IMG/VR virus record: IMGVR_UViG_3300009993_000002
Reading direction: 5' to 3' (one strand)
Length of the DNA: 20,000 bases
Origin: an uncultured virus (IMG/VR IMGVR_UViG_3300009993_000002)
Taxonomy: Duplodnaviria > Heunggongvirae > Uroviricota > Caudoviricetes
The notes beneath the pieces are model-generated. The model had not been told where the DNA came from and made no database searches. It saw only the letters and a list, made by a program, of their open reading frames with translations. Made by a program: the position numbers and the translations under genes. Shown in pieces: positions 2,510 to 19,600 of the stretch; the first letter of the stretch is position 1, and every line of letters starts with the position of its first letter.

Positions 2510-3532
2510 TCAGCCCTCGATGACCGTGTCGATCACATAGAGGGACTTCGAGGTGTTGGGCCGGACCTCGCGCACGGGCTTGCCCGTCGCGAGCCGAACC
2601 GCCTCCCACGCCATGTTCACACCCGTCTTCCAGCAGTGGAACAGGCCGTCCGAGCCGCGCGGGTTGACCTCCAGCAGGACGGGCTGGCCGTCGAGCATGC
2701 GGGTCTGCACGTTGCACAGGTACAGGATGTCGAGCTTCGTCGCCATCGCGCGGGCGATGTGGTGGATCTGCTCGTCGTCGGAGAAGGTGCGCGCGTACTT
2801 GCCCTTGATTCGGGCGATGGTGGTGACCACCTCGCCGGTCGGGGCGCGCAGCACGTCCACGCTGGCCTCCGGCTCGTCCATGACGGGGGCCACGATCAGG
2901 GGAGGCAGTTTTTCGCCCTCGGCCTCCATCGCGATCAGGGCCTGCTCGTAGTCGTCCACCTGCACCGTGCGCCGGGGCGAGACGAAGAGGTCGGCCGGAC
3001 CGGGCCGGTTGCGCTTCAGCACGCGGAAGCCGTCGGCCGCCCAGCCCGTGTCGGGCTTCACGCAGACCTCGCGGCCGTCGGCCTCGATGGTCTCGAACGC
3101 CTCACGGAAGGCGGCGGAGTCTGTCACCTGGAAGTGCTGCGGGACGAACAGCCCGGCCTCCTTGGCGGCGGCGTACGTGGCCGTCTTGGAGTCGGCGATG
3201 GCCGCACCTGTCACGCTCGGCTGGGACAGCAGGGTCACGCCCAGGGCCTCGAACTCGTGCTGGTAGGTAGCCAGCACGTGGAACCGGTCGGACGGGATGA
3301 GGATGTCGATGCCGTTGGCCTGCGCGAAGTGCAGCGCCCACTCGGCGTAGTCCTCGTCGCTCACATCACGGTCCGGCTCGGTTCCGGCGATGTCGGCCTT
3401 GGCGAGCGCGGGTCCCATCTGCGGGTGGGTGGCGTAGACGGTGACCTGCTCACCGTCGGGGTTGTCGTGCAGCATGTCGACCAGGTGCGCCTTGTAGGTG
3501 CGGGCCCGGTTGATCCATACGCGTACGCTCAC
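2510..3532 (-). CDS. ATP-grasp protein, resembling the Ter-associated ATP-grasp family (340 aa)
   Basis: VCVKPDTGWAADGFRVL, E.SVDVL and NVQ..MLDGQPVLLEVNPRGSDG motifs; N-terminal RVWINR; GTG at 3532 follows AAAGGAGA. Confidence 0.85.
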   Translation of the reverse strand: MSVRVWINRARTYKAHLVDMLHDNPDGEQVTVYATHPQMGPALAKADIAGTEPDRDVSDEDYAEWALHFAQANGIDILIPSDRFHVLATYQHEFEALGVTLLSQPSVTGAAIADSKTATYAAAKEAGLFVPQHFQVTDSAAFREAFETIEADGREVCVKPDTGWAADGFRVLKRNRPGPADLFVSPRRTVQVDDYEQALIAMEAEGEKLPPLIVAPVMDEPEASVDVLRAPTGEVVTTIARIKGKYARTFSDDEQIHHIARAMATKLDILYLCNVQTRMLDGQPVLLEVNPRGSDGLFHCWKTGVNMAWEAVRLATGKPVREVRPNTSKSLYVIDTVIEG

Positions 3533-3564
3533 GTCTTCTCCTTTTCCGTTTCTCAACATACCCA

Positions 3565-3602
3565 ATATTAGCGGAAGTTGAGGGCTGTAAGCAACCTAGG
3601 CC
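3565..3602 (-). promoter_or_regulatory. Sigma70/HrdB-like promoter TTGCTT-N18-TAATAT with an adjacent CCTAGGCC box
   Basis: -35 at 3589-3594, -10 at 3565-3570, box at 3595-3602. Confidence 0.6.
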
Positions 3603-3678: not shown

Positions 3679-5307
3679 TCAGACCATCCACGGCCACGGA
3701 GCGTTCTTGCGGTTCTCCACCAGCTCGACCAGGCCGAAGCTGGCATCCGACAGGCCGCCGAAGGTGTGCCGGTTCGGGCTGCGGTTGTCCAGGATCGAGG
3801 CGGAGTAGCCCGCCATGTTCCAGACGTAGACCGGGACGTCCTGCGGGATCAGGTCGTCGATCTTGACCTCCTCCTGGCGCCCCCACCGGTAGGTGCCGTC
3901 GTGCTTGACGAAGTAGCCCGGCTTCGACTGCTCGTCGGTGACGATCACGACGCGGGTGTGGCTGCGCGTGAGGTTGTCACGCACGGCCGCCGGGATGTCC
4001 GTGTAGTTGATCGCGTCCCCGAAGGAGTCGGTGACCTTCAGCACGCTGGAACCGCGCGGGACCGCGACCCTCCTGGAGGTGCCGCCGAATGCCACGAGCG
4101 TGGCACCCTGCGCCTTCACTGCGAGGGAGGTGCCGAACAGCGCCGCCTGGTCGGCCAGCGTGATCTCACCCTTGTGCGGGGTCGAGAACGAGTGGTTCGG
4201 GAACATGCTCGGGCTGCGGTCCACCAGGATCAGCGTCTCGCCGGAAAGCGACGGGACCAGCTCCAGGGAACCGGCCAGGCCGCGCTCCAGCACGTGACCC
4301 CAGCGCAGCGACGGCGCCATGCGGTAGGCCAGCAGGAACTGGTACGGGAAGACCCGCGCCCGGCGCACCCGCTCGCCGTCCGAGAGGACGGCTGCCACCC
4401 GGTCGGCCGCCTGGTCGGAGATCCCGTTCTCGTCGAAGTTGCGGAGGTTCTTCAGCAGCGCGTGCGGCGCCATGATGTGCGTCGCCGCCTCCCACAGCAG
4501 CTTCTTGTCGACCTTGCTGCCCAGCTCCGACAGCACGTCCTCCCACGACAGACCGGCCGCCTTGATGAAGTCCCGCTGGAGCAGGGCCGGGTCGGTCGGG
4601 CTGGACGCGGCGAGTGCACGCCACCTCTTCAGCTCGGCCGTCATCGTCAGGTTCTCGGTCCGGCGCCCGGGACGCTTGTGGCGCCGGTCGATGATGAAAC
4701 GGAACAGGTCCGACTGCGCGGAGTCCTTCGGCTTCGGGTGGACGATCTCGATGACGTCGGCGAACCGGTAGGCCCGGCGGTCGGAATCCCACTTGCCGTA
4801 CGTGAACTCGTTGTAGAGGCGCACGACGGCACGCGCGATGCCCTGCCGGACCGGCATGTAGCGCTTCGGCCACGCCTTGCCCGCGATCGAGAACCAGTAG
4901 CTCAGGAACTCGCCCGGCTCGTCGGCGCGCTGAAGCACCCCGTCGACCATGTCCTCGACGTGCTCGTACCGGTGCTGGTCGCACAGCGCCTTCGCCACCT
5001 CGGCCGCGCCGAGCGCGGAGGCCGTGCGCATGTAGCCGTCCTTGCGCAGCCACGGCAGCATGTGCGTGACGTGGTACTGCTCCAGCAGGGCGGTGCCGCG
5101 AAGGAGGTCCACGTAGCGCTCGTTGCGCGGGTCGGCGCCCTCGTGGAACATCTCGGCGGTCACGAGGTTGGACACCGAGAGCAGGTAGAGGTCCGACAGC
5201 GGGTTCCGACCGAAGCCGGATGCACCGAGGGCGGTCGTCGCCGGGCCGGTCGTGCTGACCGGGGACGTGACGCGCGGGCGGACCGTGCGCTTGTTGAAGG
5301 TGGCCAT
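3679..5307 (-). CDS. rsr: Ro60/Rsr ortholog: TROVE domain plus C-terminal vWA domain (542 aa)
   Basis: MATFN start, F(H)E...RNER, LR....MRTAS, LQRADEPGEFLSYW, KWD....YRFADVIEIVHPKP, ALLKNLRNF, FPYQFLLAY, LILVDRSPSM (MIDAS), VIVTDEQS, WNMAGY, GGLSDA; ATG at 5307 with GAGGAG RBS. Confidence 0.93.
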   Translation of the reverse strand: MATFNKRTVRPRVTSPVSTTGPATTALGASGFGRNPLSDLYLLSVSNLVTAEMFHEGADPRNERYVDLLRGTALLEQYHVTHMLPWLRKDGYMRTASALGAAEVAKALCDQHRYEHVEDMVDGVLQRADEPGEFLSYWFSIAGKAWPKRYMPVRQGIARAVVRLYNEFTYGKWDSDRRAYRFADVIEIVHPKPKDSAQSDLFRFIIDRRHKRPGRRTENLTMTAELKRWRALAASSPTDPALLQRDFIKAAGLSWEDVLSELGSKVDKKLLWEAATHIMAPHALLKNLRNFDENGISDQAADRVAAVLSDGERVRRARVFPYQFLLAYRMAPSLRWGHVLERGLAGSLELVPSLSGETLILVDRSPSMFPNHSFSTPHKGEITLADQAALFGTSLAVKAQGATLVAFGGTSRRVAVPRGSSVLKVTDSFGDAINYTDIPAAVRDNLTRSHTRVVIVTDEQSKPGYFVKHDGTYRWGRQEEVKIDDLIPQDVPVYVWNMAGYSASILDNRSPNRHTFGGLSDASFGLVELVENRKNAPWPWMV

Positions 5308-5325
5308 GACCGTTCTCCTCTCCGA

Positions 5326-5367
5326 GAAAACGCGAAACCCCCTCTTCCCAAAACGGGAGAGGGGGCG
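5326..5367 (-). terminator. Intrinsic terminator between the Y-RNA array and rsr
   Basis: Minus strand CCCCCUCUCCC-GUUUU-GGGAAGAGGGGG followed by UUUCGCGUUUU. Confidence 0.65.
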
Positions 5368-5375
5368 CATGTCAA

Positions 5376-5557
5376 TGTGTGGATGGGGTGCCCGGCCAAC
5401 AAGTAGACGCCGGTGGTTCTTTCGAACCTTCCTCGACCAACGCTCTGCCAATTGAGCTACCTACGAGCAAGCTCGCAAGTCAGGACTCGAACCTGAAACA
5501 TTTGGTTCCACTGTGAAGTAACCGTCGCCAAAACGCTCCGGACACCTCAACCACACA
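5376..5557 (-). ncRNA. yrlA: YrlA-type Y RNA with a circularly permuted tRNA-like domain
   Basis: Minus strand order: closing stem GGUGUCCGG/CCGGGCACC, GGCGACGGUUACUUC, ACCAA, T arm UCAGG-UUCGAGU-CCUGA, loop-closed acceptor stem CUUGCGAGC-UU-GCUCGUAGG, D arm GCUC-AAUUGGCA-GAGC, UUGGU. It lies immediately upstream of rsr. Ends are approximate. Confidence 0.88.
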
Positions 5558-5565
5558 CTGAGCTA

Positions 5566-5692
5566 ACGGAAAACGCAGAGAGCCACCGGCCAACAAAGTG
5601 GGCCCCGGTGCCGGAGCTAACCGGCTGTTTCCTTTTTGCAGAAAGAAGTAACCGTTGCCCTAAACGCTCCGGTGGCTTTCTGCGTTTTCCGT
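5566..5692 (-). ncRNA. Second Y-RNA-like unit, no tRNA domain, with a long terminal stem
   Basis: Shares CCGGAGCG / CGGUUACUUC / ACCG / GUUGGCCGG with the YrlA; 24-bp terminal inverted repeat (5566-5589 vs 5669-5692, one mismatch); internal hairpin GCCGG-UUAGCU-CCGGC. Confidence 0.75.
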
Positions 5693-5694
5693 CA

Positions 5695-5773
5695 TGCGCC
5701 CCGGCCAACTAGGTGGCGCCCGGTTTGCTCTTCCCAAATGAAGTAACCGTTCGCCGGAACGCTCCGGGGTGCA
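5695..5773 (-). ncRNA. Third, minimal Y-RNA-like unit (about 79 nt)
   Basis: GCACCCCGGAGCGUUCCGGCGAACGGUUACUUC...ACCGGGCGCCACCUAGUUGGCCGGGGCGC; contains GGCGAACG, matching the GNCGAAN(0-1)G bacterial Y-RNA consensus. Confidence 0.75.
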
Positions 5774-5779
5774 GGAAAA

Positions 5780-5809
5780 ACATTACGCAATCCTGCGAGG
5801 GGATCGCAA
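5780..5809 (-). promoter_or_regulatory. Promoter TTGCGA-N18-TAATGT driving the Y-RNA array
   Basis: -35 at 5804-5809, -10 at 5780-5785; the predicted start (about 5773) coincides with the 5' end of the first Y-RNA unit. Confidence 0.65.
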
Positions 5810-5815
5810 GCCCAT

Positions 5816-6295
5816 TTACCCCTCGCCTGGTGCCAGGATCCAGGACGGGTTGGCCTGCTTGGGCGTGAGCCCCAGCGCCTTGAGGGCGTCCAGCAGGGGC
5901 TTGTGGCTGGCCGAGTGTGTGCCCGGGGCGATGGCCTTGGGGGTGTAGTCGTCGGCGTAGTAGATGGTGCCCGCCAGTGCGATGCCGTAGTGCATGATGC
6001 CGCTCACCAGCGACCCGTGCTCGACGACCTGCACACCGCACCGCTCGGCAAGTGCCTCGTCCAGCTTCCTGGTCGGCACGTCGGCCGCCTCGACGCCCAT
6101 GCCGAGGAAGATGGCGATGCGCATCTGGTCCGCGCTCACGCCGTCCTCGTCCTCGTCCTCGTCGCTGGGCATCTCCAGCCAGGGGAGACCGGCACCTTCA
6201 AGGTCGCCGTACTCGTCGGCCTCGGCCACCTCCCAGCCGCCGTCGTCGGGGCAGCCAAGATGGAAGCCGTAGTACAGGGTTGCATTGGGCGACAT
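5816..6295 (-). CDS. Acidic hypothetical protein (159 aa, MSPNATLYYGFHLG...)
   Basis: ATG at 6295 with GAGGAGAAAGG RBS; Asp/Glu-rich tract DEDEDED. Confidence 0.75.
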   Translation of the reverse strand: MSPNATLYYGFHLGCPDDGGWEVAEADEYGDLEGAGLPWLEMPSDEDEDEDGVSADQMRIAIFLGMGVEAADVPTRKLDEALAERCGVQVVEHGSLVSGIMHYGIALAGTIYYADDYTPKAIAPGTHSASHKPLLDALKALGLTPKQANPSWILAPGEG

Positions 6296-6317
6296 GTCGA
6301 CCTTTCTCCTCAACAGG

Positions 6318-6345
6318 GAGGGGGCCCCAGGCGTGGGGCCCCCTC
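6318..6345 (-). terminator. GC-rich hairpin, possible terminator or processing site
   Basis: GAGGGGGCCCCA / TGGGGCCCCCTC inverted repeat in the intergenic gap. Confidence 0.55.
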
Positions 6346-6355
6346 GGATCGGCGT

Positions 6356-6550
6356 TCAGGGAGTGACGTCGTTCCCGGCGGCCGAGCTGTTCTCGGCCCG
6401 CACCGTCTCGGCGACGACCGTCTTCACGTCGACTCCGTACCCCTCGGCGATACCGGCCAGGGCGCCAGCGACGCGCTCGCTGGTGTGCTGATCGAGTTCC
6501 GGGTGCGCCTGCCCGACCTGCGTGACAGGCCGTTCGTCGCGCCCGCTCAC
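6356..6550 (-). CDS. Small hypothetical protein (64 aa)
   Basis: GTGA overlap with the vWA gene stop; plausible composition. Confidence 0.6.
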   Translation of the reverse strand: MSGRDERPVTQVGQAHPELDQHTSERVAGALAGIAEGYGVDVKTVVAETVRAENSSAAGNDVTP

Positions 6551-7302
6551 TGGACGATGCCCTTCCGCCGGGCCTCGGTGAGCCAGCTCGGGAACTCGTT
6601 CATGAGCCGGTTGTACAGCTCGGCATCGCGCATCGCGGTCGGATCCTGGCCGACGGCGAAGAAGTCCGAGTTGTCGATCGGACGGTACTGCGGGACCGGG
6701 ATGTCGTCGAGGCGCTGGAGGAAGCCCAGGCCCTCGTCGTCGTTGTAGTCGTACACGCGGTCCTCTCCGAAGCCGACGAACTGCCAGAAGATCGGCAGGT
6801 TCGCGTACTGGCAGATGCGGTTGGCCGCCGCCTTGCGGTCGCCTGGGGATCCGTCGGTCTGGAAGACGACGAGGCCGGGGACCGTCTTGCCGCTGGCCTG
6901 GTAGTGCTGCACGACAGCATCCATGGCCACGGCGTAGTCCGTGCCGCCCATGCTGATGTTGCCGCCGAGCTTGTGGTGAGCCTTGGCGATCTTGCCCTGG
7001 TAGTCCGTCAGGGACAGCTCGTCCATGCCCTTCAGCTCGTGGTCGAAGAAGACGACCGGCACCTTGCCGTCGTCGTCGAAGAGCGGGGCCATGCCCAGGA
7101 TGCGCTCCGAGAAGTACTGAACGGCACCACCGCTGTAGTAGCTCCGGCCCGGCCAGTCCATCGAGCCCGAGCGATCGAGCACCAGGTACACAGCCGCTCG
7201 CTCACCCTCCAGACCGTGCTGATTGGCGGCGAAGCTCGCCTTCTGGAAGGGCTTCTCCAGACCGGGAGCGACTTCACGGATCTTCTCTATCGTGTATCCC
7301 AC
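6547..7302 (-). CDS. vWA-domain protein, TerF-C-terminal-like family (251 aa)
   Basis: AAVYLVLDRSGSM (MIDAS DxSxS), FDDDG.VPVVFF, MGGTDY..AM, VVFQTDG, LPIFWQFVGFG, FLQRLDD...R.IDNSDFF, LYNRLMNEFPSWL. Confidence 0.88.
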   Translation of the reverse strand: MGYTIEKIREVAPGLEKPFQKASFAANQHGLEGERAAVYLVLDRSGSMDWPGRSYYSGGAVQYFSERILGMAPLFDDDGKVPVVFFDHELKGMDELSLTDYQGKIAKAHHKLGGNISMGGTDYAVAMDAVVQHYQASGKTVPGLVVFQTDGSPGDRKAAANRICQYANLPIFWQFVGFGEDRVYDYNDDEGLGFLQRLDDIPVPQYRPIDNSDFFAVGQDPTAMRDAELYNRLMNEFPSWLTEARRKGIVQ

Positions 7303-7323
7303 GTTTTCCCTCTCCGAGGATCG

Positions 7324-7509
7324 TTACTTCTGGACGGGCTTGGGCCACTGCTCCGGCGGGACGCCGCCCATCTTCGCTTGCGGCTTCTCGGGAACTGCCG
7401 TTCGAACCAACTCGCCGGATCCGTAGTTCTTGCTCGCATGCGACTGTGTCGCTGCGGGTCCGGTGTCGACCCTCTCGGAAGCGGCATCCAACGCATCGGC
7501 GTCAGACAT
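7324..7509 (-). CDS. Small hypothetical protein (61 aa, MSDADALDAASERV...)
   Basis: ATG at 7509 with GGAAGG upstream; overlaps the stop of the upstream small ORF. Confidence 0.55.
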   Translation of the reverse strand: MSDADALDAASERVDTGPAATQSHASKNYGSGELVRTAVPEKPQAKMGGVPPEQWPKPVQK

Positions 7510-7639
7510 AAGCACCTTCCTGCCAGGCGAGCATGACTTTCTGCTCGCGGTATTCGTCCAACTCCTTGACGGAGAGGAACGTGATTCCGTCCTCCTGGAG
7601 TACAACCGGCTTGACCGGTCCCTCCGATTCCTTCTCCAT
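7502..7639 (-). CDS. Small acidic ORF not in the track (45 aa, MEKESEGPVKPVVLQEDGITFLSVKELDEYREQKVMLAWQEGAYV)
   Basis: Manual translation; fills the gap between the tRNA-like RNA and the next gene with an 8-bp overlap; RBS is weak. Confidence 0.45.
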   Translation of the reverse strand: MEKESEGPVKPVVLQEDGITFLSVKELDEYREQKVMLAWQEGAYV

Positions 7640-7649
7640 TCCGTTCACG

Positions 7650-7768
7650 TGTGCACGACGGGATTCGAACCCGTGGACCCTCCGGAAACACCCAGTTCCG
7701 TCAGGTCGCCTGCCTCCTCCGCTGGGGCGGATTCAGCAGGACCCTTTAGGCCGCTCAGGCACATGCAC
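7650..7768 (-). ncRNA. Atypical tRNA-like RNA (119 nt): class-II-type D arm, enlarged anticodon loop, 33-nt variable arm
   Basis: Acceptor GUGCAUG/CGUGCAC, D arm CCU-GAGCGGCCUAA-AGG, T arm ACGGG-UUCGAAU-CCCGU; CCUG/CAGG encloses 24 nt that include the hairpin UCCGC-CCCA-GCGGA. Confidence 0.75.
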
Positions 7769-7869
7769 TGCCAGGCCGATCAGCCTGACCCAGATTCCGT
7801 TTACAGAGGTCATTGCCCGTAAGAGCTTCTACACGGAATCGATGGGCTCTTCTTCCTCCTCTACCCAAG

Positions 7870-7954
7870 AGTCCACGACGGGATTTGAACCCGCGTTTCC
7901 CGCCGCTGGCTTTACCCAGTAGGAAGGCGTGCTAGGCCGCTGCACTACGTGGAC
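7870..7954 (-). ncRNA. Atypical tRNA-like RNA (85 nt): Glu/Asp-like body with an 18-nt anticodon loop
   Basis: Acceptor GUCCACG/CGUGGAC, D arm GUGC-AGCGGCCUA-GCAC, T arm GCGGG-UUCAAAU-CCCGU; CCUUC/GGCGG encloses CUA-CUGG-GUAAAG-CCAG-C. Confidence 0.75.
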
Positions 7955-8112
7955 GGCCCGGCCGCTCGCGAAAGCCGGGCTTCGGATTCCCGCCGAACTG
8001 GCAGGCCAGTGCCAGTTCGGTGTCCTGCGGAAACCCTCAGTGGTATGTCACCCCGCTACCGGCTTTCTTCAGCCGAGAGCGGGGGTTCTGCGGTCGCCGG
8101 ATGACGACCTTG

Positions 8113-8186
8113 TTGGCAGGGGGAGAGTTGAACTCCCGACCTCGGGATTATCAGTCCCGTGCTCTAACCAACTGAGCTACCTGCCA
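8113..8186 (-). tRNA. trnI: tRNA-Ile(GAU), CCA not encoded
   Basis: Complete cloverleaf: UGGCAGG/CCUGCCA, GCUC-AGUUGGUUA-GAGC, CGGGA-CU GAU AA-UCCCG, GGGAG-UUCAACU-CUCCC, discriminator A. Confidence 0.95.
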
Positions 8187-8298
8187 TCGATCCAGCCGGA
8201 AGCAGGTCGGATCTACCTCCGGTGGATCGGTGCGCCGAGCCGGGCCGTAACCGGCTCGATGCGTTTCGTCCGGGCGTCGGATCCCCGAACTAGGTATA

Positions 8299-8327
8299 AC
8301 TCTACCGACGTTGCTGGCCTAGGTCAA
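8299..8327 (-). promoter_or_regulatory. Promoter TTGACC-N17-TAGAGT for the tRNA cluster, overlapped by a CCTAGGCC box
   Basis: -35 at 8322-8327, -10 at 8299-8304; near-consensus HrdB promoter. Confidence 0.75.
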
Positions 8328-8336
8328 CAGACCAGT

Positions 8337-9638
8337 TCAGCTCGCCAGCCGGAAGTTCTCACCCTCGGCGGTGACCAGGCCGTCACGGGCGAACGAACGC
8401 AGGAACTTGCTCGCCTGAACGGTCCCGCAGCCGGTGTGGCTGGCGAGCAGGCCCGGCGTCCAGACCGCCTGCGGATGCCCCTGAAGAGCCCGTATGGCGA
8501 CATCCCGGGGGTACTTGCCACGGCCGTGATCCGGAAGAGCCAGGAGACCGATCATCTCGTCCGTGACCGTCCATGTGCGAACCAGATTCGGGCCGTGCGT
8601 GTTCAGGTAGCCGTGGCCCCGGAAGCGGGGACCGCGTGGCAGGAAATGCGGCTCGACCCCAGCCCCTTCACCGAGCACCGTCGTGGTGTTCTGCGGGGTG
8701 TTGACGCGCAGGCAGAACGAGAAGTCGAAGTTCGTGCGGATGCCCGAGGTGATGCCCCGGTCGTCGCCCGAGCGGAGCGGGTTCTGGGTCATCCACATGA
8801 TGATGATCTCGCGCGAACGGCCCTGGCTGGACAGCTCGGTGAGCTTCTGCATCACGGACTTGTCGGGCCCGTCGGAGAAGGTGTACTCCTCGTCGCCCTT
8901 CGGCGCCTTGCCGCGCCTCTTGTCCTCCTCGATCACAGCCTGGAGGACCGAGTAGCCCTCGTCGATCGGGATGAGCCTGCGCGGGCCGAGTTTCAGATCC
9001 CACTTCGAGATCCCCAGCTTGGCCATCTGGGCAGCCCGGTCTTCCATCCGGGCGTGCTCGCGCTCGATCATCTCGATGATCTCTTCATGCGTGACAGCGC
9101 ACGGGCAGATGCCGCGCCAGACCGTGGCCTCCTCGCCCTTGCCGTCGATGAAGCCGCCCAGCTCCTCATCCGGGTGGACCACGGCCCGCGCCATCAGGGC
9201 GCGCGTGGACCAGCTCTTGCCGGAACCGGAGGCGCCGCCGACCAGAAGGCGCTCATGGCGCGGCACGTCGACCTCCTCGCCCGTGACGGTGTCGAGGCCC
9301 AGCGTCGTGATGTCGGGGTGCCAGAACATGTCCAGCTCGTCGGTCACGTACCGGGTGCGCACGGAGTACAGCACCTTCGAGGACCGGCCGCTGGGGGTCA
9401 GGTCCGACAGGTGGCCGTCCAGGACGTCGAGCATGGCCCGGATGACCTGATGCCGCTTGCGCAGCTCGGGCAGCGCGTCGCGGCCGTCGAGCTGGAGGGT
9501 GGCCACGACGCCGGACTGGGTCAGCTCAGCGTCGTGGAGCGTGACGCCACGCAGCCCGCGCTTCACGGCCTGGGGGTTCCAGTAGTCCGGCGTCAGGAGG
9601 CCGAGCAGGCGCAGCTCCTCCTCAGTCGCTACCAGCAT
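8337..9638 (-). CDS. FtsK/SpoIIIE-family ATPase, TraB-like, with a probable C-terminal winged helix (433 aa)
   Basis: Walker A LLVGGASGSGKS, FIDGKG.E, RMEDRA..M, Walker B LIPIDEG, QGRSREI....TQ.P (Arg finger/Gln sensor), IRTNF, G.GYL; C-terminal TPGLLASHTGCGTVQASKFLRSFARDGLV. Confidence 0.9.
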   Translation of the reverse strand: MLVATEEELRLLGLLTPDYWNPQAVKRGLRGVTLHDAELTQSGVVATLQLDGRDALPELRKRHQVIRAMLDVLDGHLSDLTPSGRSSKVLYSVRTRYVTDELDMFWHPDITTLGLDTVTGEEVDVPRHERLLVGGASGSGKSWSTRALMARAVVHPDEELGGFIDGKGEEATVWRGICPCAVTHEEIIEMIEREHARMEDRAAQMAKLGISKWDLKLGPRRLIPIDEGYSVLQAVIEEDKRRGKAPKGDEEYTFSDGPDKSVMQKLTELSSQGRSREIIIMWMTQNPLRSGDDRGITSGIRTNFDFSFCLRVNTPQNTTTVLGEGAGVEPHFLPRGPRFRGHGYLNTHGPNLVRTWTVTDEMIGLLALPDHGRGKYPRDVAIRALQGHPQAVWTPGLLASHTGCGTVQASKFLRSFARDGLVTAEGENFRLAS

Positions 9639-13623: not shown

Positions 13624-16600
13624 TCAGACCATGAACCAGTTGCCCCCCGAGGGAATGAGCGTCATGGAATCCCACTGGGCGGCGAGGTTCTTCGTGGTCG
13701 CGCCGTCGATGGTCTCCGAGGCGTTGCCGTCCACCGTGACGGCATTTCCGCTTGAGTCGATCTTCTTCACGGTGATCGGGTCGGTGCGCCCCGTGGCGGT
13801 CGGCAGTGTGATGGTGACGCCGCCACTGGTGGCATCGACCAGGATCACCTGGTCGAAGTACGTGGCGGTGTAGGCCGAGGTCTTCGTCGTCACGGGGAAT
13901 GTGAGCTGCGAGTTCCGCAGCCGGAGGCCAGTCGGGGAGTCCACCGTGAGGTTGGCGGCCGTGAAGAGGCCAGCCAGGGTGATTTCGCCGCGCGCTGCGG
14001 CCAGCCCCGTTCCGCTGGTCCGGTCACCGAAGCGTGGCGTGCTCGTCTCAGTGTCGATCTTCAGATACATGGTGGGACCCAGGCCGCCCGTGCCGGGCCC
14101 GAAGATGTACACCAGGAACGTGCATGTCTCGATCGACAGGAGGGTGGCGTGGATCGAGTGGGCGGCGCCCACCGATCCGTAGTAGCTGCCCACCGGGCAG
14201 AAGGCTGCCCAGCAGTACAGAATGCGCATGGCGTAGATGTCGGTATGCTCGGTGACGAGGATGCCGTAGGTGTACCCGCCGCCGATGGTGAGGTTGGTGA
14301 CCACGGTGTTGTCGTTGGCCCCATTGGCGGGCAGCAGGATACCGATGGCCAGACCCGTCGCGAACAGGTTCGGGTTCTGGTAGCTGGCGCCCGGAGGCGC
14401 GACAGTTCCCGAGGTGGAAACGGCCATGTCCCGGAGCCTGGCGTTCGCGACTCCCGAGAGATCGAGGGCCGAGTAGGTCAGGCCGTTGCGGCTGTGGCAC
14501 GTCAGGATCGACAGGTCGCCGATGTCCACGTGGACGTTGGAGAAGACGCCCGGCGCCACGCCGTAGCCGCCCGGCTGCGAGGGCCCTCCGATGACGGCGG
14601 CATTGCCGTTCGCGTTGATGGAGTTGACCTGCGCGGTCGCGTTGGCGAACATGCCGAAGCTGACGAGCGTGCTGCCGGTGGTGTTGGGGTAGGTCTGCTG
14701 CCAGTGCTGGACGCCGGACCCGTTGATGTCTCCCTTGATCGACAGGGTCAGCTTGCGCCCCGTCGCGGGCACCACGGGGAGAGTGAGCTGCGAGTTGCCG
14801 AGGGTCGAGCCGCCGGTCTTCAGGGCCCCGGCGACACCGTAGAAAGCTCCCCGGGCAGGCGGGATGTAGACGGTCGCGGCGTAGGAGTGCGCGAGGCCGT
14901 AGGCCACGGCCGCGTCGATGGCCCTCTGGATGGCGACCGTGTCGTCCGTGGCCCACAGGACCGGAACTCCGGTCACCGTGGATGCGGCGTTCACCGAGAG
15001 GGTGACCTGCGTCGCGCTGGTGTAGGAGAGGATCGTTCCGGTGATGGTCTCGCCGGACGTTCCGGCGTTCAGCACCAGGATGTTCTTGCCGACGTCCGCA
15101 GGCTTGAAAGGCGCGCTGGTGGAGCACGTGAGGACCGCCGAGCCCGACGTCATCGCCGCGTCGATGGCCAGCTTTCCGTCGCCGACGGCGCCGTACTTGG
15201 CGACATCGAAGATGTGGGCCGGTCCGCCTCCTGGCGTCTTCGTGTAGGTGCTGGTGGTGCCTGCAACGTAGGTGATGTTCGTGCCCAGGTAGAGGGAGCC
15301 GTTCCCGCCCCCGTCATTCAGTCCTGCGGTCGCCGCGTGGAGGTAGGCGTTGTCGATCTGCACGTGCGAGGTGTTGGTGAACGACGCGCCGTACTGGGGG
15401 GAGTTCGTCGAGCCCCCGCCGTCATCCACGCCGGGGAAGTTCGTCCAGTCGCCGATGATGAGCGGGGTGGTGGCGCCGTTCGCGGCCAGACCTGCATACC
15501 CGCCGCCGCCGGTACCTCCGTTACGGCCGTCGCGCCGGGTCATCAGGTTGGAGATGACGATCGGCGGGGTGCCGGTGCAGTCGAGGTAGACGCCGTTGAA
15601 GCCGTTGCGGTCGGTCGAGCAGCCCGACATCAGCATGCCGCCCGACCCGGCGCCGTTGCCCCAGTTGCCGCTCAGGTAGAAGCCGTGGTTGCCGTTCCAC
15701 TCGGCGCGGCAGCCGACCATCTGAGAGTTGGCCGCGTTCTGGAGCATCCAGCCGTTGGACCAGTTCCCGATCGCCTGGCAGTCGACGGCCGTGAGGTCGA
15801 CCATGCGCTCACCGAAGAAGCCGTGGGCGTGGTTGTTGTCGAGCATCACCCGGTGCATGCGCCAGGAGTACGGAGCGATGCCACCCTGGAGGCCGCAGTA
15901 GATGCCGGAGTTCGGGAAACGCCGGATCGTGACGTCGCGCAGGGCCACGTTCTGCACGTTGCCCTTGGCCTGGATGCCGTCGACTCCGGCACCGAGATTC
16001 CCTCCGTCGAGGGTGACGTTCAGGATCCGCTGCTCGCCAGAGATGTCCGCGTAGCCACCATCGGTGGCGTCCAGGAAGCGGATCGCGGCAACTCCGGTGA
16101 AGGTGCCGAGCGGTTTGATCTGGGCGTTCGGCTCGTAAAGGTCGGTGACCGTCATGAGGTCCGACCGCAGGGTCATCAGCGTCTTGCCCGGCGGCACGAC
16201 GATCGGCTCGTCGATGGCGTACGTGCGGGGCGGCAGGGCGATGACACTGCCAGCGGGGGACGTGTCGAGGATGGCGTTGATGGCGGGCGCGTCGTCGGTG
16301 GCGCCGTCACCGACGACGCCGTGGTCCATGCCGTTGATCCACAGGGAGTCCTGCGCCACATACAGGCCGTCGGCCGTGGTCTGGTCGAGTGCTCCGACGT
16401 CGGCGGCCGTCAGTGTTACGTCACCGTCTTCACCGTTGACCGAGGTGACCAGGGCGTCAGGCATCTGCGCGGCGGGAACCTTGCCTGTCGAGTCGAGAGA
16501 GGCCACGCCGTTCGCCACGCCGACCATGTCCGTGGTGAGGACCGGGTCTCCGTCGGGGCCGCCGCCGAAGTTCGAGCGGGCGATGGTCCCTGGTGCGTTG

Positions 16601-19600
16601 AGGTCGAGCGCCCCGACTGACAGCGTTCCCTTCGTGATCAGCATGTTGCCCACGATGAGGTTGCTGCCCGACCCTCCGACGGACTCCTCGCGGATCAGGG
16701 ATCGCGCAGCCCCGTTCACCGTGTGGGAGGCGATGGAGTTGTTCGCCACGAGGTTGCCAGTTGCGCCGAATTCCAGGTGAATTCCGGAGAAGGCGCCAGC
16801 CGTACCTACCGCACCGATGCCGAAGATGGTGTTTCCTTCGACCAGGCAGTTTGTTGCCGCAATGAAGACGGCGTCACCGGCAACTCCGTCGAAGTTGCAT
16901 CCGATGATCTTCGTGGCCGACGCGTCCTGCACGCGAATGGCCGGTCGGCTGTTTCCGCCGTTGACGAAGTTGCATCCTAGGATCGTCTGCGTTCCGGCCG
17001 AATCATGGATCATGCCCATCGCCATGCCCGATCCGCCGAGGAACTGAAAGTCGCACGCAACGATCAGGTTCTCGTCGTTCGACGTCATGTATATCGCACT
17101 GCCCTCGAAGGTCGAGGTGTTCGCGTTGTCGAAGAGGCAGTGCGCGATGATGTTGTTGTGGCCGAAAGCCGTGCTGTTCATGCCCGACAGCACCAGGGCG
17201 GTGCTCTTGATGGAAGTAAAGTGGATGCGCTGGAAGACGCATTCCACAGCACCCATTGCCCAGATGCCGCCGTTCGGGCCGATCGTCTGATTGGCGAGGT
17301 TGCCGTCGAGGGTGAAGTTGGAGAACGTCGAACGCGTCTCATCGCCAGAGAAAGTGATCGCATTGTCGTTCATTCCGTCGGCCAGCTTCAGCACGGTTCC
17401 CCACCCGGAACCGATCAGCCCGAGGCCGACCCCGCTGGGCCAGTTGATCGTGGCACCCAGCGAGAACGTGCCGTCGAGCAGTCGGACGTTTCCCTTTCCG
17501 GGTGCCGCGTTCACCAGGTCGATGGCCTGCTGGATGACGAGGTGGTCGTCAGTGCCAGTGCAGACGAAGTCGGCACCGCTCTGATTTCGGGAATCGCTCG
17601 CCGCCACGACGACATCGCCTACGCCCACATCGGAGGCGACGAGGCTTACGTCGGGCCCGCTGTAGCCGTTGACGGTTTCCACGACGCTCTCTCCGGCGGT
17701 CGTGGAATCCACGATCAGGCCGAGCGCTTCGAGGGCGTTCAGCAGGCTCTCCAGGCCCGCACCCGTGGTCCGGGCCCCCGAAACCGACTGCTGCCCCACG
17801 GGCGTCGCACCGAAGAAACCGGCCTGGCCAGCAGCGCCGTCCAGCGTGTGACCGGTCGTGTCGAACGGACCGTCGCCGAAGACCCACTTACCGGAGGCGT
17901 GCGCCGTGAACTCTCCGGACTCCAGGCGGAGGTAAGTGTGCTGCTCCCCAAGGAAGTTGACCAGCTCGTAGACCGAAAGGAAGAGGTCAGCACCTGAGGC
18001 GTCGAGATCCAGGGCGGTGCCCGACTGCCGGAAACGGTAGCTCTTCGCGTCTTCCTGACCGACCAGGAAATCGGAGTCGATGAGGGCCAGCACGCCAGCG
18101 CTGAGCCGCCTCAGGAAGGTGTCCATTGAGCCGGAGCCCGAACCCCACTGCATCTCGCCGTCGGCGAGGCGGCGCCACATGTCGTTGGTGCTGGCCAGCG
18201 CCCGGGAGGACTGCGCCACGTCGCTGTCGGACGGGCGCAGGGATGACACGGTGCCCGTGAACTCCGCCCCGGAGAGCTGGGCGTAGCCGCTCAGGTCGAC
18301 GGCAGCCCCGCCGCTGGGGCCCGATCCGAACTTGCCCGCCTTGACGAACAGGGCCTGAGACGCGTCGGAGAGGTTGGCCGCAGTTCCCGATACCGCCAGA
18401 AAGCCCAGGTTGATGGCATTTCCAGGAAGGGCCTCGTTGACCGAGAAGGCTTCCTTGCCCGCCGCGCCGACCGCCGATTCCAGATCCGCGTACGTCTGCT
18501 GCCCGTACTGAAGGATGTAGATCTCGGAACCCTCGTTCGGCGGGAGCATCCAGAGCTGGTGAAGTACGAATTCACCGCCGGGTACAGGCGTGAGAGTTCC
18601 GCCGCTGTCGTAATGCCCGACATCGACAATCGGATCGGCGGCCCCGAGGTCAAGATCGGTATCCCTCAGGAGGTGAATCCATGCAGCGGGCGACGTGGAG
18701 GACGTGGGGACGATGTGCGGATTGTTGGTCTCGGTTCCGCCGTCGAAGTGATTCCATCCACGGGAGAAAACCTGCCCGCTGCCTACGTTGAGCCGAAGGT
18801 TCGCACCGTTCGGGCTCACGTCGTTACCGGAGATGTTGAACGCACCGATGGCGTCCATCAGGTCGTAGAGCTGGTTCACCGCATTGCGGGCGATCGTGGG
18901 GATCGACTGGGCCAGGAAGATCGACCCGTTGTGCTGGGCCACCATGCCGATGACGATGAAGGTCCGGCGGTCTTCCGGCAGGGGGCGCGATCCCTGCTGG
19001 TAGACGTTCAGGTCGGCGTCCATCAGCAGCCAGGTGATGTCGCGGGTCTGCGCAACGCTGTCCAGCTCGACGGTGATGACGCTCGTGCTCTCCACGTGCG
19101 TCACGACGGGAGGGCTCTGGAGGTAGTCGACGATCTGCCCGGTCAGCGGGTTGATATCGACAGCCAGCGGGTTCGAGAGGCTGGCGGAGATGTCGCCACC
19201 CGTGGCGATGCCGGTCTCCAGGCCGCCGCTCGGGCCCACGGGACCCTGCGGGCCCACGAGCGAGGCCAGCCACTGCTCCTCGGTCCCGACGAAACCTTCC
19301 TCGACGGCCACCTCGTAAGCCGATGCGCCGTCGGCACCGGGGGATCCAGGCGAGCCAGGATTTCCCGGAGGGCCCTGAATGGGGACGTATTCCACGCCGC
19401 AGACATCCACGGAAAGGATGTCCGTGATGTCCAGTGATCCAGACCCCTGCGGAAGGGAGAAGGTGCCGACATCCCAGGCACCTCCCACGAATTGCCGGAT
19501 CCGCCACAGGCGCCCCTCTTCGGGCAGGACGCCAGAAGCATCGGTGCAGACGAGGCTTTCCGAAAAGTGTCCGTTCTCGTCGAGCGTGACCTTTCCGCCG

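What the first reader, a model, noticed from the sequence alone, without database searches (positions are those of the whole stretch)
7650..7954. Two tRNA-like RNAs whose anticodon loops are replaced by an inserted hairpin
Seen: both have fully paired acceptor, D and T arms with intact GG and UUCRAAU motifs, so they do not look randomly decayed. Their anticodon loops are 24 nt (containing UCCGC-CCCA-GCGGA) and 18 nt (containing CUGG-GUAAAG-CCAG) instead of 7. The two bodies differ (class-II-like versus Glu/Asp-like), yet show the same kind of alteration at the same place. The first also has a 33-nt structured variable arm (GACC/GGUC, CGGAA/UUCCG). They appear co-transcribed with a normal tRNA-Ile. 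Inference: they may be non-decoding tRNA mimics (decoys for anticodon nucleases, synthetases or tRNA-sensing defence systems), tRNAs with mini-introns needing cleavage and ligation, or substrates/partners of the nearby Rsr. They mirror YrlA, where the anticodon arm is also the site of an appended domain.
Basis: partly seen in the sequence, partly recalled or inferred. Interest (0 to 1): 0.82.

Follow-up and report, generated by a model that had tools for sequence, protein, structure and literature searches.

The report
Two conserved non-decoding tRNA-like phage RNAs
A large Streptomyces phage makes, beside a normal isoleucine tRNA, two RNAs that keep the tRNA body but have no usable anticodon loop; evolution has preserved them, so they probably work as tRNA look-alikes, though their partner is unknown.

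Summary
On the minus strand, TL1 (7768-7650, 119 nt) and TL2 (7954-7870, 85 nt) follow tRNA-Ile(GAU). They sit 2.3-2.6 kb upstream of a Ro/TROVE gene in a cluster-BM-like Streptomyces phage.

Both keep the acceptor, D and T arms. TL1 has a 24-nt anticodon "loop" that folds into an internal loop plus a 5-bp hairpin, and a 33-nt variable arm. I found 12 distinct TL1 sequences. In the 10 aligned, 17 of 38 pairs show compensatory changes, including 4 of 5 pairs in the inserted hairpin.

TL2's body is also conserved, but its anticodon loop varies by lineage: a 17-nt hairpin insert, or 3, 6, 8 or an aberrant 7 nt. None is canonical.

- **Intron reading:** unsupported. There is no bulge-helix-bulge motif, no splicing endonuclease or RtcB in 5 of 5 related genomes, and an RNA ligase in only 1 of 5.
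- **Pseudogene reading:** rejected by the covariation.
- **Ro's Y RNA:** they are not the phage's only or main Y RNA candidates. Three Y-RNA-like units, one with a YrlA-type core, lie directly upstream of Ro.

Best reading: conserved, non-decoding, tRNA-derived RNAs, matured like tRNAs, with TL1's extra hairpins as ligand-binding modules. The partner is unknown. No expression data were available.

The parts
8299..8327 (-). Sigma-70-like promoter (TTGACC, 17 nt, TAGAGT) upstream of the tRNA-Ile/TL2/TL1 cluster
   Evidence: It is the only promoter-like site on this strand in 5200-8500; 0.2 are expected by chance. The hexamers are conserved in 8 of 8 aligned lineages.
8187..8298 (-). Conserved structured leader between the promoter and tRNA-Ile
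   Evidence: Mean pairwise identity is 0.67 across 8 lineages. It contains a 9-bp hairpin. The YrlA model gives only a weak match here (15.6 bits, E 7).
8113..8186 (-). Normal tRNA-Ile (anticodon GAU)
   Evidence: ARAGORN; Rfam tRNA 74.8 bits; clean cloverleaf fold.
8051..8085 (-). Conserved hairpin in the spacer between tRNA-Ile and TL2
   Evidence: Aligned in 7 of 8 lineages, with changes that keep the pairing. Function unknown.
7870..7954 (-). TL2: 85-nt tRNA-like RNA with an Asp/Glu-like class-I body. Its anticodon arm is a 6-bp stem, a UA/C internal loop and a CUGG-N6-CCAG hairpin (7919-7906).
   Evidence: My TL2 model R2 scores 106.8 bits on the window's own copy, which is one of the sequences it was built from. 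The weak blastn matches of the T arm are all to tRNA-Asp genes.
7772..7787 (-). Small covarying hairpin ending 3 nt before the TL1 5' end, preceded by an invariant CUGGG
   Evidence: The stem differs in sequence but stays paired in the 4 and then 8 aligned lineages.
7650..7768 (-). TL1: 119-nt class-II tRNA-like RNA. The anticodon arm carries a conserved internal loop and a 5-bp hairpin with a CCCA loop (7731-7718). The 33-nt variable arm (7707-7676) has an invariant CUGG in its loop. The discriminator is A.
   Evidence: My TL1 model R1 scores 129.8 bits on the window's own copy, which is one of the sequences it was built from. Mean pairwise identity is 0.77, against 0.80 for tRNA-Ile and 0.51-0.63 for the spacers.
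7502..7648 (-). Conserved small ORF (48 aa from the GTG; 45 aa from the ATG at 7639). It starts 1 nt after the TL1 discriminator and has no Shine-Dalgarno sequence.
   Evidence: The translations are conserved in 4 lineages. The junction is identical in 6 of 8 lineages; the other 2 have a Shine-Dalgarno-led leader of about 20 nt. Only 8 homologues were found, all unnamed.
7324..7509 (-). Second small ORF (61 aa). Its start overlaps the stop of the first ORF.
   Evidence: Reading. It corresponds to gene 152 of Frankenweenie. No family match.
6547..7302 (-). vWA-TerF-like protein
   Evidence: Pfam PF10138, E 7.6e-56. It is present here and in Frankenweenie but not in JustBecause or Satis.
5388..5770 (-). 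Three tandem Y-RNA-like units. The third has a YrlA-type permuted tRNA-like core (5504-5434). They are preceded by a promoter-like site and followed by a terminator-like hairpin (about 5368-5328).
   Evidence: RF02553 scores 32.5 bits, E 3.7e-5, below its gathering score of 69; the Satis homologue scores 43 bits. The 10-nt motif occurs 3 times against 0.01 expected. Alignment; sequence.
3679..5307 (-). Ro60/Rsr-like (TROVE) RNA-binding protein
   Evidence: Pfam TROVE E 1.4e-10; PHROG 850 'RNA-binding protein' E 6.9e-30. Relatives are annotated 'Ro-like RNA binding protein'.

Best explanation
TL1 and TL2 are functional, non-decoding RNAs derived from tRNAs. They form a small family confined, as far as I could find, to cluster-BM-like large Streptomyces phages.

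They are probably transcribed from one conserved promoter together with tRNA-Ile. Because they keep a full acceptor/T-arm helix and the D/T elbow nucleotides, host RNase P and RNase Z probably cut them out, and the CCA-adding enzyme probably finishes them, as for a CCA-less tRNA. This gives stable L-shaped RNAs.

They cannot read codons. Instead:
- **TL1** uses the tRNA body as a chassis. It displays two conserved extra hairpins, one in the anticodon arm and one as a long variable arm. Their invariant loop motifs are the likely contact points for a protein or RNA partner.
- **TL2** works through its tRNA body alone, because its anticodon loop is free to change in length.

The most likely role is as tRNA mimics within the phage's tRNA/RNA-surveillance module (Ro, Y RNAs and, in one relative, an RNA ligase). 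They could tether or titrate a tRNA-binding factor of the host or the phage.

A second, separable effect: cutting at the TL1 3' end would leave the downstream small ORF with a start codon 1-10 nt from the new 5' end. That makes it a nearly leaderless mRNA.

**Shown:** structure, conservation, absence of a decoding loop, synteny.
**Inferred:** transcription, processing, the ligand, and any link to Ro.
For: **Intact tRNA core with covariation**
- TL1: 17 of 38 pairs have compensatory changes and 95.5% of cells are paired. RNAalifold finds the same fold independently, with 16 of 37 pairs compensated.
- TL2: 11 of 26 pairs have compensatory changes.

**TL1's extra parts are under selection**
- 4 of 5 pairs of the inserted hairpin and 6 of 12 pairs of the variable arm covary.
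- The flank CUGAA, the GCAGG strand and the discriminator A are found in all 13 TL1 copies extracted (12 distinct). The hairpin loop is CCCA in 12 of 13 copies and UCCA in Satis.
- CUGG in the variable-arm loop is invariant in the 10 aligned sequences and present in L162.
- TL1 is as conserved as the real tRNA-Ile (0.77 against 0.80) and more than the spacers (0.51-0.63).

**No canonical anticodon loop in any lineage**
- TL2 has a 17-nt hairpin insert in 8 of 11 aligned sequences. The others have 3 nt (Satis), 6 or 8 nt (L149), and 7 nt with A33 and C37 (L150). L162 has 6 nt.

**Copy number and position**
- Each is single-copy in 5 of 5 whole genomes searched; the other matches are ordinary tRNAs at 22-47 bits.
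- The promoter is conserved in 8 of 8 lineages, with no terminator-like site before TL1.
- Ro lies 1-4 kb downstream in all 8 genomes checked: 4 of 4.

**Link to the downstream ORF**
- The start of the small ORF abuts TL1 in 6 of 8 lineages.

**The design works when engineered**
- A tRNA scaffold with the anticodon stem-loop replaced by an inserted hairpin is processed and stable in E. coli (PMC3753655, passages read).

**A related phage has further examples**
- A more distant 259-kb phage carries two more remodelled tRNA-like RNAs in its main tRNA array. One has a 57-nt three-hairpin insert; the other has a 5-nt loop and a variable arm of about 50 nt.
Against: - There is no expression or processing evidence of any kind. 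No RNA run holds this DNA.
- No partner is identified.
- The link to Ro rests on synteny among related genomes, which is shared descent and not independent co-occurrence.
- The 259-kb relative keeps its extra remodelled tRNA-like RNAs about 50 kb from Ro.
- The phage already has dedicated Y-RNA-like units next to Ro.
- TL2's distal hairpin never varies where it is present (8 of 8 sequences), so it offers no covariation. It is missing in other lineages, and one homologue (L149) also lacks the GG of the D loop. TL2 could therefore be drifting in some lineages.
- The leaderless-mRNA idea fails in 2 of 8 lineages, which have a Shine-Dalgarno-led leader. A gene caller also prefers the ATG 9 nt further on in the window.
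- All homologues come from one phage group, so few independent evolutionary events underlie the covariation counts.
Confidence: 0.45

Rival explanations
1. Decoys for host immunity. TL1 and TL2 are baits that soak up or misdirect a host tRNA-targeting defence factor, such as an anticodon nuclease, an acceptor-end-modifying toxin or a tRNA-sensing protein. This would spare the real tRNAs. It is a specific version of the mimic idea in which the partner belongs to the host.
For: - The RNAs are non-decoding but keep a full tRNA shape.
- TL2's anticodon loop changes length between lineages while its stem and body are kept. That is the kind of pattern an arms race could give.
- TL1 exaggerates the class-II variable arm.
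- Both lie in a region with RNA-repair flavour: Ro, Y RNAs, and an RNA ligase in JustBecause.
- A review of jumbo phages places TROVE proteins among RNA-repair counter-defence genes (PMC7824862, passage read).
Against: - No defence system is identified and no experiment exists.
- Catalytic nucleases are hard to titrate with a single-copy RNA.
- TL1's arms are strongly conserved rather than fast-evolving.
- My literature searches found no precedent for a non-decoding phage tRNA decoy.
Confidence: 0.2
2. Processing punctuation only. The tRNA-like folds serve merely as RNase P/RNase Z cleavage signals. They separate tRNA-Ile, the spacer RNAs and the downstream mRNA, much as mascRNA does for MALAT1 or tRNAs do in mitochondrial transcripts. 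The released RNAs themselves have no function.
For: - The acceptor/T-arm unit that these enzymes need is intact.
- The TL1 3' end abuts the start codon of a conserved ORF with no Shine-Dalgarno sequence in 6 of 8 lineages.
- TL2's anticodon loop is unconstrained in length.
- The Rfam mascRNA model gives a weak match to TL2 (15.8 bits, E 7).
Against: - This does not explain why TL1's two extra hairpins are kept by compensatory changes with invariant loops.
- It does not explain why the anticodon stems of both RNAs covary, since a minihelix would be enough for cleavage.
- It does not explain why two such elements stand in tandem.
Confidence: 0.15
3. Charged but non-decoding tRNAs. TL1, and perhaps TL2, are aminoacylated by a synthetase that does not need the anticodon. 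They then donate the amino acid to a non-ribosomal reaction or affect a charging-dependent sensor.
For: - TL1 keeps a constant discriminator A and a class-II body. Among ordinary tRNAs, my TL1 model scores best on a phage tRNA-Tyr (34.4 bits).
- From general knowledge (recalled, not tested here), class-II synthetases for Ser and Leu largely ignore the anticodon.
- An ATP-grasp gene lies downstream of Ro in the window.
Against: - TL2's discriminator varies (U, C or A) between lineages. That argues against a fixed identity.
- No transferase gene is conserved beside the RNAs. The ATP-grasp and vWA genes are absent from JustBecause and Satis.
- A 33-nt variable arm and a 15-bp anticodon arm may not fit a synthetase.
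Confidence: 0.08
4. Intron-containing tRNAs. The hairpins are mini-introns that are cut out and the halves ligated to give decoding tRNAs.
For: - In TL1 the 24-nt loop starts with CUGAA. Removing 17 nt could leave a 7-nt loop with U33 and a purine at 37, giving anticodon GAA.
- JustBecause encodes an RNA ligase next to Ro.
Against: - Removing TL2's hairpin leaves 3 nt. The Satis, L149, L162 and L150 homologues have no insert yet still lack a canonical loop.
- Both arms show an internal loop plus a closed hairpin, not two offset 3-nt bulges around a 4-bp helix.
- A tRNA-splicing endonuclease is found in 0 of 5 related genomes, RtcB in 0 of 5, and an RNA ligase in 1 of 5.
- A class-II body with a Phe anticodon matches no known tRNA type.
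- Compensatory changes keep the hairpin, and its loop and flanks are invariant. That is unusual for a spacer-like intron.
Confidence: 0.03
5. Decaying tRNA pseudogenes with chance insertions.
For: - tRNA finders report them as undetermined or miss them.
- TL2's loop differs between lineages, and one homologue lacks the D-loop GG.
Against: - Compensatory changes occur in every helix.
- TL1 is as conserved as tRNA-Ile.
- The RNAs are kept in 12 distinct TL1 lineages whose Ro proteins have diverged to 36-38% identity.
Confidence: 0.03

Closest known systems
YrlA (Rfam RF02553), the tRNA-like Y RNA bound by bacterial and phage Ro60/Rsr
   Same: It is a tRNA-derived, non-decoding RNA with intact D and T arms, encoded near Ro in bacteria and phages. 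Its extra domain sits where the anticodon arm would be (PMC4201824; abstract and passages read).
   Different: - YrlA is circularly permuted. Its two ends form the Ro-binding helix at the anticodon-stem position, and its acceptor stem is closed by a loop.
- TL1 and TL2 have free acceptor ends and a closed anticodon arm.
- The YrlA model does not match them even at E up to 10.
- A separate YrlA-type core lies at 5504-5434 in the same window.
Deinococcus radiodurans Yrn1
   Same: As described in PMC4201824 (passages read), it can be drawn in non-permuted tRNA order, with an 'anticodon arm' of 5 bp and a 6-nt loop. That makes it a tRNA-like RNA with a non-canonical anticodon loop.
   Different: - In Yrn1 the Ro-binding helix continues from the RNA ends. 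The flanks of TL1 and TL2 do not pair to extend the acceptor stem (reading).
- Yrn1 has no variable arm and only a partial D arm.
Engineered 'tRNA scaffold' for producing recombinant RNA (Ponchon and Dardel approach)
   Same: The architecture is the same: acceptor, D and T arms are kept, and the anticodon stem-loop is replaced by an inserted hairpin. The chimera is processed and stable in bacteria (PMC3753655, passages read).
   Different: That scaffold is man-made. Here the design is natural, conserved, and in TL1 extends to the variable arm as well.
Other tRNA-like RNAs: the tmRNA tRNA-like domain, mascRNA, and plant-virus 3' tRNA-like structures
   Same: They have acceptor/T-arm mimicry that RNase P or the CCA-adding enzyme recognises, and they do not decode.
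   Different: - Rfam gives only chance-level matches: mascRNA 15.8 bits for TL2, and the Tymovirus tRNA-like structure 17.4 bits on tRNA-Ile itself.
- TL1 and TL2 keep all four arms of a cloverleaf.
Stable RNAs of unknown function encoded in the phage T4 tRNA gene cluster (recalled from memory, not checked here)
   Same: They are phage RNAs co-located with tRNA genes that are not tRNAs.
   Different: No sequence or structure comparison was made. This is a lead only.

Membership tests
Canonical decoding tRNA (Rfam RF00005) | Cloverleaf with a 7-bp acceptor stem, D and T arms, and the elbow nucleotides (U8, A14, GG in the D loop, UUCRAAU T loop) | tested here: met
   Both RNAs meet this.
Canonical decoding tRNA (Rfam RF00005) | 5-bp anticodon stem closing a 7-nt loop with U33 and a purine at 37 | tested here: not met
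   - TL1: 24 nt in all 12 distinct sequences.
- TL2: a 17-nt insert in 8 of 11 aligned sequences; otherwise 3, 6/8, or 7 nt with A33 and C37, and 6 nt in L162.
Canonical decoding tRNA (Rfam RF00005) | Recognised by tRNA models | tested here: inconclusive
   TL2 scores 44.2 bits (gathering score 29), with the arm skipped. ARAGORN gives '???'. TL1 is not reported by either tool.
YrlA / Y RNA | Match to the RF02553 covariance model (gathering score 69 bits) | tested here: not met
   No match on TL1 or TL2 at E up to 10. The model does match 5504-5434 at 32.5 bits.
YrlA / Y RNA | 5' and 3' ends pair to form the Ro-binding helix; permuted order (T arm before D arm) | tested here: not met
   TL1 and TL2 run in normal tRNA order, and their ends lie in the acceptor stem.
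YrlA / Y RNA | Encoded next to Ro | tested here: inconclusive
   They lie on the same strand, 2.3-2.6 kb upstream, with five ORFs and the Y-like units in between. They are syntenic in all 8 related genomes checked, but this is shared descent.
YrlA / Y RNA | Physically bound by Ro | not testable with these tools
   This needs immunoprecipitation or gel-shift with the phage Ro protein.
Intron-containing tRNA (archaeal-type or group I) | Excision restores a canonical anticodon stem-loop | tested here: not met
   - TL2: no. 3 nt are left, and the insert-free homologues are still aberrant.
- TL1: formally possible only with a 17-nt excision that gives a class-II body with anticodon GAA.
Intron-containing tRNA (archaeal-type or group I) | Bulge-helix-bulge motif, or a self-splicing intron of more than 200 nt | tested here: not met
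   The inserts are 14-17 nt. They form a symmetric internal loop plus a closed hairpin.
Intron-containing tRNA (archaeal-type or group I) | Splicing endonuclease and ligase available | tested here: not met
   In phage genomes, PF01974 is found in 0 of 5, PF01139 in 0 of 5, and PF09414 in 1 of 5. Host enzymes were not examined.
tRNA pseudogene | No selection on structure (no compensatory changes; conservation no higher than the flanks) | tested here: not met
   Compensatory changes occur in every helix. TL1 identity is 0.77, against 0.51-0.63 for the spacers.

The most novel reading that the evidence does not exclude
Large actinophages may use the tRNA fold as a natural display chassis, in the way the laboratory 'tRNA scaffold' does. 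Small protein-binding hairpins would be grafted into the anticodon and variable arms, cut out by the host's own tRNA-processing enzymes, and used to capture or redirect a host or phage tRNA-binding factor, for example a tRNA-targeting defence protein or the Ro/exonuclease machinery. The same cut at the TL1 3' end would create a nearly leaderless mRNA for a conserved 48-aa protein. One tRNA-like element would then couple RNA maturation to translation of its neighbour.
Probability: 0.2. Interest if true: 0.8.

Novelty: new variant of a known kind. Interest (0 to 1): 0.62.

Why it matters
Phage tRNA genes are usually explained by codon supply or, more recently, by escape from tRNA-cleaving defences. 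Both explanations need decoding. Here two RNAs keep the tRNA body under selection while decoding is impossible, so the tRNA shape itself must be what is used.

They sit beside Ro and Y RNAs, whose tRNA-like domains also have no known function. The isolate phages JustBecause, Satis and Frankenweenie grow on laboratory Streptomyces. A family with free acceptor ends in such tractable phages gives a direct handle on what tRNA mimicry does in this setting.

There is also a practical point. Public records annotate these RNAs as tRNA-Ser, tRNA-His or tRNA-OTHER, and one Y-RNA unit as tRNA-Pro. Phage tRNA counts are therefore inflated.

Tried and rejected
- **Own genome:** none is held for this window.
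- **First TL1 pattern scan of viral contigs:** it was too loose. None of the 80 fully fetched loci matched the TL1 model, and I did not scan the other 39 short loci.
- **Tighter pattern:** it found true homologues only on large phage-like contigs or short metagenome pieces.
- **Bacterial genomes:** None of the 80 I scanned matched, and I did not scan the other 40. Absence from cellular genomes is therefore not shown.
- **RNA evidence:** no RNA holder was listed, so I can say nothing about expression.
- **Other Ro-encoding actinophages:** VanLee, GiJojo and Atuin have Ro inside or beside ordinary tRNA arrays, and VanLee has a YrlA-like match. None has a TL1-like match above 34 bits.
- **Kissing-loop idea:** TL1's CCCA loop could pair with the UGGG of its variable-arm loop. 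By my reading, about 8 of the 12 distinct sequences allow 4 pairs and the rest have a mismatch at the fourth position. The Satis sequence has the only double change (UCCA with UGGA). I could not read the variable-arm loop of L233 from any output. The idea is suggestive but unproven.
- **Alternative TL1 pairing resembling the Y-RNA Ro-binding helix:** it works only in the window sequence, not in the relatives, so I dropped it.
- **Two further weak TL1-model matches in the Satis tRNA array** (26-29 bits): they did not resolve into cloverleaves by eye.
- **Family searches:** the small ORFs and the 165-aa ORF gave no hits.
- **Earlier notes of this scan:** nothing found.
- **Literature:** searches found no description of these RNAs. 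The genome announcements only give tRNA counts (PMC6687918 and PMC10652959, passages read).
Full report
**What the window is.** All genes in this part of the window lie on the minus strand. The closest public records are the large Streptomyces phages Frankenweenie (77% identity over 97% of a 1.9-kb query), JustBecause and Kela (76%), and Satis, Quantum, Kradal and EhyElimayoE (69%). Their genome announcements place these phages in cluster BM (PMC6687918 and PMC10652959, passages read). No whole genome is held for the window.

The gene order on the minus strand is:
- an FtsK-like gene (9638-8337);
- tRNA-Ile(GAU) (8186-8113);
- TL2 (7954-7870);
- TL1 (7768-7650);
- two small ORFs;
- a vWA-TerF-like gene (7302-6547);
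- two more ORFs;
- three Y-RNA-like units (5770-5388);
- Ro/TROVE (5307-3679);
- an ATP-grasp gene (3565-2510).

ARAGORN reports TL2 as a tRNA of undetermined type. Rfam's tRNA model scores it 44.2 bits but skips 25 nt of the anticodon arm. TL1 is invisible to both tools, even at E up to 10.

TL1 nevertheless folds as a class-II cloverleaf, both alone and by RNAalifold on ten homologues. It has a 7-bp acceptor stem, a 3-bp D stem with a GG loop, and a 5-bp T stem with loop UUCGAAU. Its variable arm is about 33 nt.

The 24 nt are not a loop. They form further closing pairs, a small symmetric internal loop, and a 5-bp hairpin capped by CCCA.

TL2's arm is a 6-bp stem (one mismatch in the window), a UA/C internal loop, and a CUGG-hexaloop-CCAG hairpin.

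**Homologues and covariation.** I built covariance models from the four isolate lineages and searched pattern-seeded and protein-seeded loci. TL1 turned up as 13 copies, 12 of them distinct. They come from isolates, IMG/VR contigs of 46-192 kb, and metagenome contigs.

- **TL1, ten aligned sequences:** 95.5% of 380 cells are standard pairs, and 17 of 38 pairs change on both sides. No shuffle out of 500 reaches these values, and sliding the 3' partner drops pairing to 38-46%.
- **TL1's inserted hairpin:** it is the most covarying helix, with 4 of 5 pairs compensated.
- **TL1's variable arm:** 6 of 12 pairs are compensated.
- **TL1's invariant features:** the CUGAA flank, the GCAGG strand and the discriminator A are in 13 of 13 copies. 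CCCA is in 12 of 13, and UCCA in Satis. The CUGG in the variable-arm loop is invariant in the 10 aligned sequences and present in L162.
- **TL2, eleven aligned sequences:** 96.0% of 273 cells are paired and 11 of 26 pairs are compensated.

Across eight lineages, TL1's mean pairwise identity (0.77) matches that of the real tRNA-Ile (0.80). The spacers score 0.51 and 0.63. One caution applies: all sequences belong to one phage group, so the number of independent changes is smaller than the cell counts suggest.

**TL2's anticodon loop is free to vary; TL1's is not.** TL2's hairpin insert is present in 8 of the 11 aligned homologues, and its four stem pairs never vary there. The other lineages have:
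- Satis group: a 5-bp stem with a 3-nt loop (69-70 nt in all). GenBank annotates it tRNA-His.
- L149: a 6- or 8-nt loop.
- L162: a 6-nt loop.
- L150, from a distant 259-kb phage: a 7-nt loop with A at position 33 and C at position 37. ARAGORN calls it tRNA-Arg.

So no homologue has a canonical decoding loop, yet the stem below the loop covaries. TL2's discriminator varies (U, C or A), whereas TL1's is always A.

TL1 does not meet it. TL2 meets it only half-way: the insert is clade-specific, but the alternatives are not normal either.

**Not introns, not pseudogenes.**
- Removing TL2's hairpin leaves 3 nt.
- TL1 could formally give a 7-nt loop by removing 17 nt. That would yield a class-II body with a Phe anticodon, which matches no known tRNA type.
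- Neither arm has two offset bulges around a 4-bp helix.
- Five related complete or near-complete genomes contain no tRNA-splicing endonuclease (0 of 5) and no RtcB (0 of 5). An RNA ligase is present in 1 of 5 (JustBecause, next to Ro). Host enzymes were not examined.
- Compensatory change in every helix excludes neutral decay.

**Relation to Ro and Y RNAs.** Directly upstream of Ro lie three tandem units that share a 10-nt motif (3 matches against 0.01 expected) and a second 9-nt motif. A promoter-like site precedes them and a terminator-like hairpin follows.

The third unit carries a T arm, then a closed stem, then a D arm. This is the permuted order typical of YrlA. It matches RF02553 at 32.5 bits (E 3.7e-5), and the Satis homologue scores 43 bits. 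Both are below the gathering score of 69.

The phage therefore has its own Y-RNA candidates. TL1 and TL2 are something else, or something additional. They differ from YrlA in topology: they have free acceptor ends and a closed anticodon arm.

Ro lies 1-4 kb downstream of TL1 or TL2 in all eight genomes checked. These genomes are syntenic relatives, so this is not independent evidence. In other actinophages, Ro sits inside or beside ordinary tRNA arrays. That suggests a general Ro-tRNA link in phages but is not specific to TL1 or TL2.

The 259-kb relative also has two more remodelled tRNA-like RNAs in its main tRNA array, about 50 kb from Ro. One has a 57-nt, three-hairpin insert in the anticodon arm. 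The other has a 5-nt loop and a variable arm of about 50 nt. Remodelling tRNA arms thus seems to recur in this phage group.

**Expression context.** The only promoter-like site on this strand in 5200-8500 lies upstream of tRNA-Ile. Its hexamers are conserved in 8 of 8 lineages. No terminator-like site lies between it and TL1.

Neither RNA, nor tRNA-Ile, encodes CCA. If they are matured, it would be by the RNase Z plus CCA-addition route. This is an inference from general tRNA biology.

The TL1 discriminator is followed after one base by a GTG that opens a conserved small ORF with no Shine-Dalgarno sequence. The junction is identical in 6 of 8 lineages. In Frankenweenie no other in-frame start precedes the conserved core. 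The two remaining lineages have a Shine-Dalgarno-led leader of about 20 nt. Cutting at the TL1 3' end would therefore yield a nearly leaderless mRNA. This is an inference and remains untested.

**What I think it is.** Stated with high confidence (about 0.85): these are conserved, structured, non-decoding tRNA-derived RNAs.

Stated with much lower confidence: they act as tRNA mimics. TL1 would use the tRNA body as a processing and stability chassis that displays two selected hairpins to a partner. TL2 would act through the tRNA body alone.

The engineered tRNA scaffold shows that exactly this architecture is processed and stable in bacteria (PMC3753655).

The partner could be the Ro/Y-RNA machinery, a host tRNA-targeting defence factor, or a tRNA-processing enzyme. 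Nothing here discriminates between these. No RNA data exist for this DNA.

**Independent DNA support.** Contigs from three further runs cover both RNAs without indels. They show a single substitution, and it lies in a spacer. The runs may belong to one sampling campaign.

Noticed in passing
window 5388-5808 (minus strand): There are three tandem Y-RNA-like units directly upstream of Ro, with their own promoter-like site and a terminator-like hairpin. In the window only the third unit has a YrlA-type tRNA-like core. In Frankenweenie, JustBecause and Satis the second unit also carries a T-arm-like segment that the window lacks (gap in alignment A2). All score below the Rfam gathering score, so they would be missed in routine annotation.
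   Followed up: partly
L001 4859-4949; L002 6317-6388 and 5522-5592; L003 6349-6418: Public annotations appear to mislabel these RNAs.
- Frankenweenie's 91-nt 'tRNA-Pro' overlaps the YrlA-like match.
- JustBecause's 'tRNA-Ser' is the 3' part of TL1.
- JustBecause's 'tRNA-Cys' probably belongs to a Y-like unit.
- Satis's 'tRNA-His' is the short form of TL2.
   Followed up: partly
L159 734-860 and 3244-3361 (259-kb IMG/VR phage, main tRNA array): There are two further remodelled tRNA-like RNAs here. One has a TL2-like body with a 57-nt insert of three hairpins in the anticodon arm. The other is class-II-like, with a 5-nt 'anticodon' loop and a variable arm of about 50 nt.
   Followed up: partly
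window 8187-8298 and 7955-8112 (minus strand): The leader before tRNA-Ile and the spacer after it contain conserved hairpins. Examples are a 9-bp stem in the leader and the hairpin at 8085-8051. The motif CUGGG recurs three times: in the spacer before TL1, in the TL1 variable-arm loop, and in the TL2 insert. I have no explanation for this.
   Followed up: no
window 6547-7302 and 2510-3565 (minus strand): A vWA-TerF-like protein and an ATP-grasp of the Ter-operon type flank the Ro region. The vWA gene is shared only with Frankenweenie. The ATP-grasp gene was not seen in the three annotated relatives' loci.
   Followed up: no
L002 4446-5198: JustBecause has an RNA ligase (PF09414, E 1.2e-17) inserted between the Y-like units and Ro. 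It is absent from the other four genomes searched.
   Followed up: yes
window 13624-19752 (minus strand): This is a 2042-aa protein with beta-helix and pectate-lyase-like domains. It corresponds in position to the 'minor tail protein' of Frankenweenie.
   Followed up: no
L295-L297 (Gordonia phage VanLee, Streptomyces phage GiJojo, Arthrobacter phage Atuin): In these unrelated actinophages the Ro gene sits inside or at the edge of the tRNA gene array. GiJojo has several over-long 'tRNAs' (78-81 nt for class-I types) that I did not inspect.
   Followed up: no
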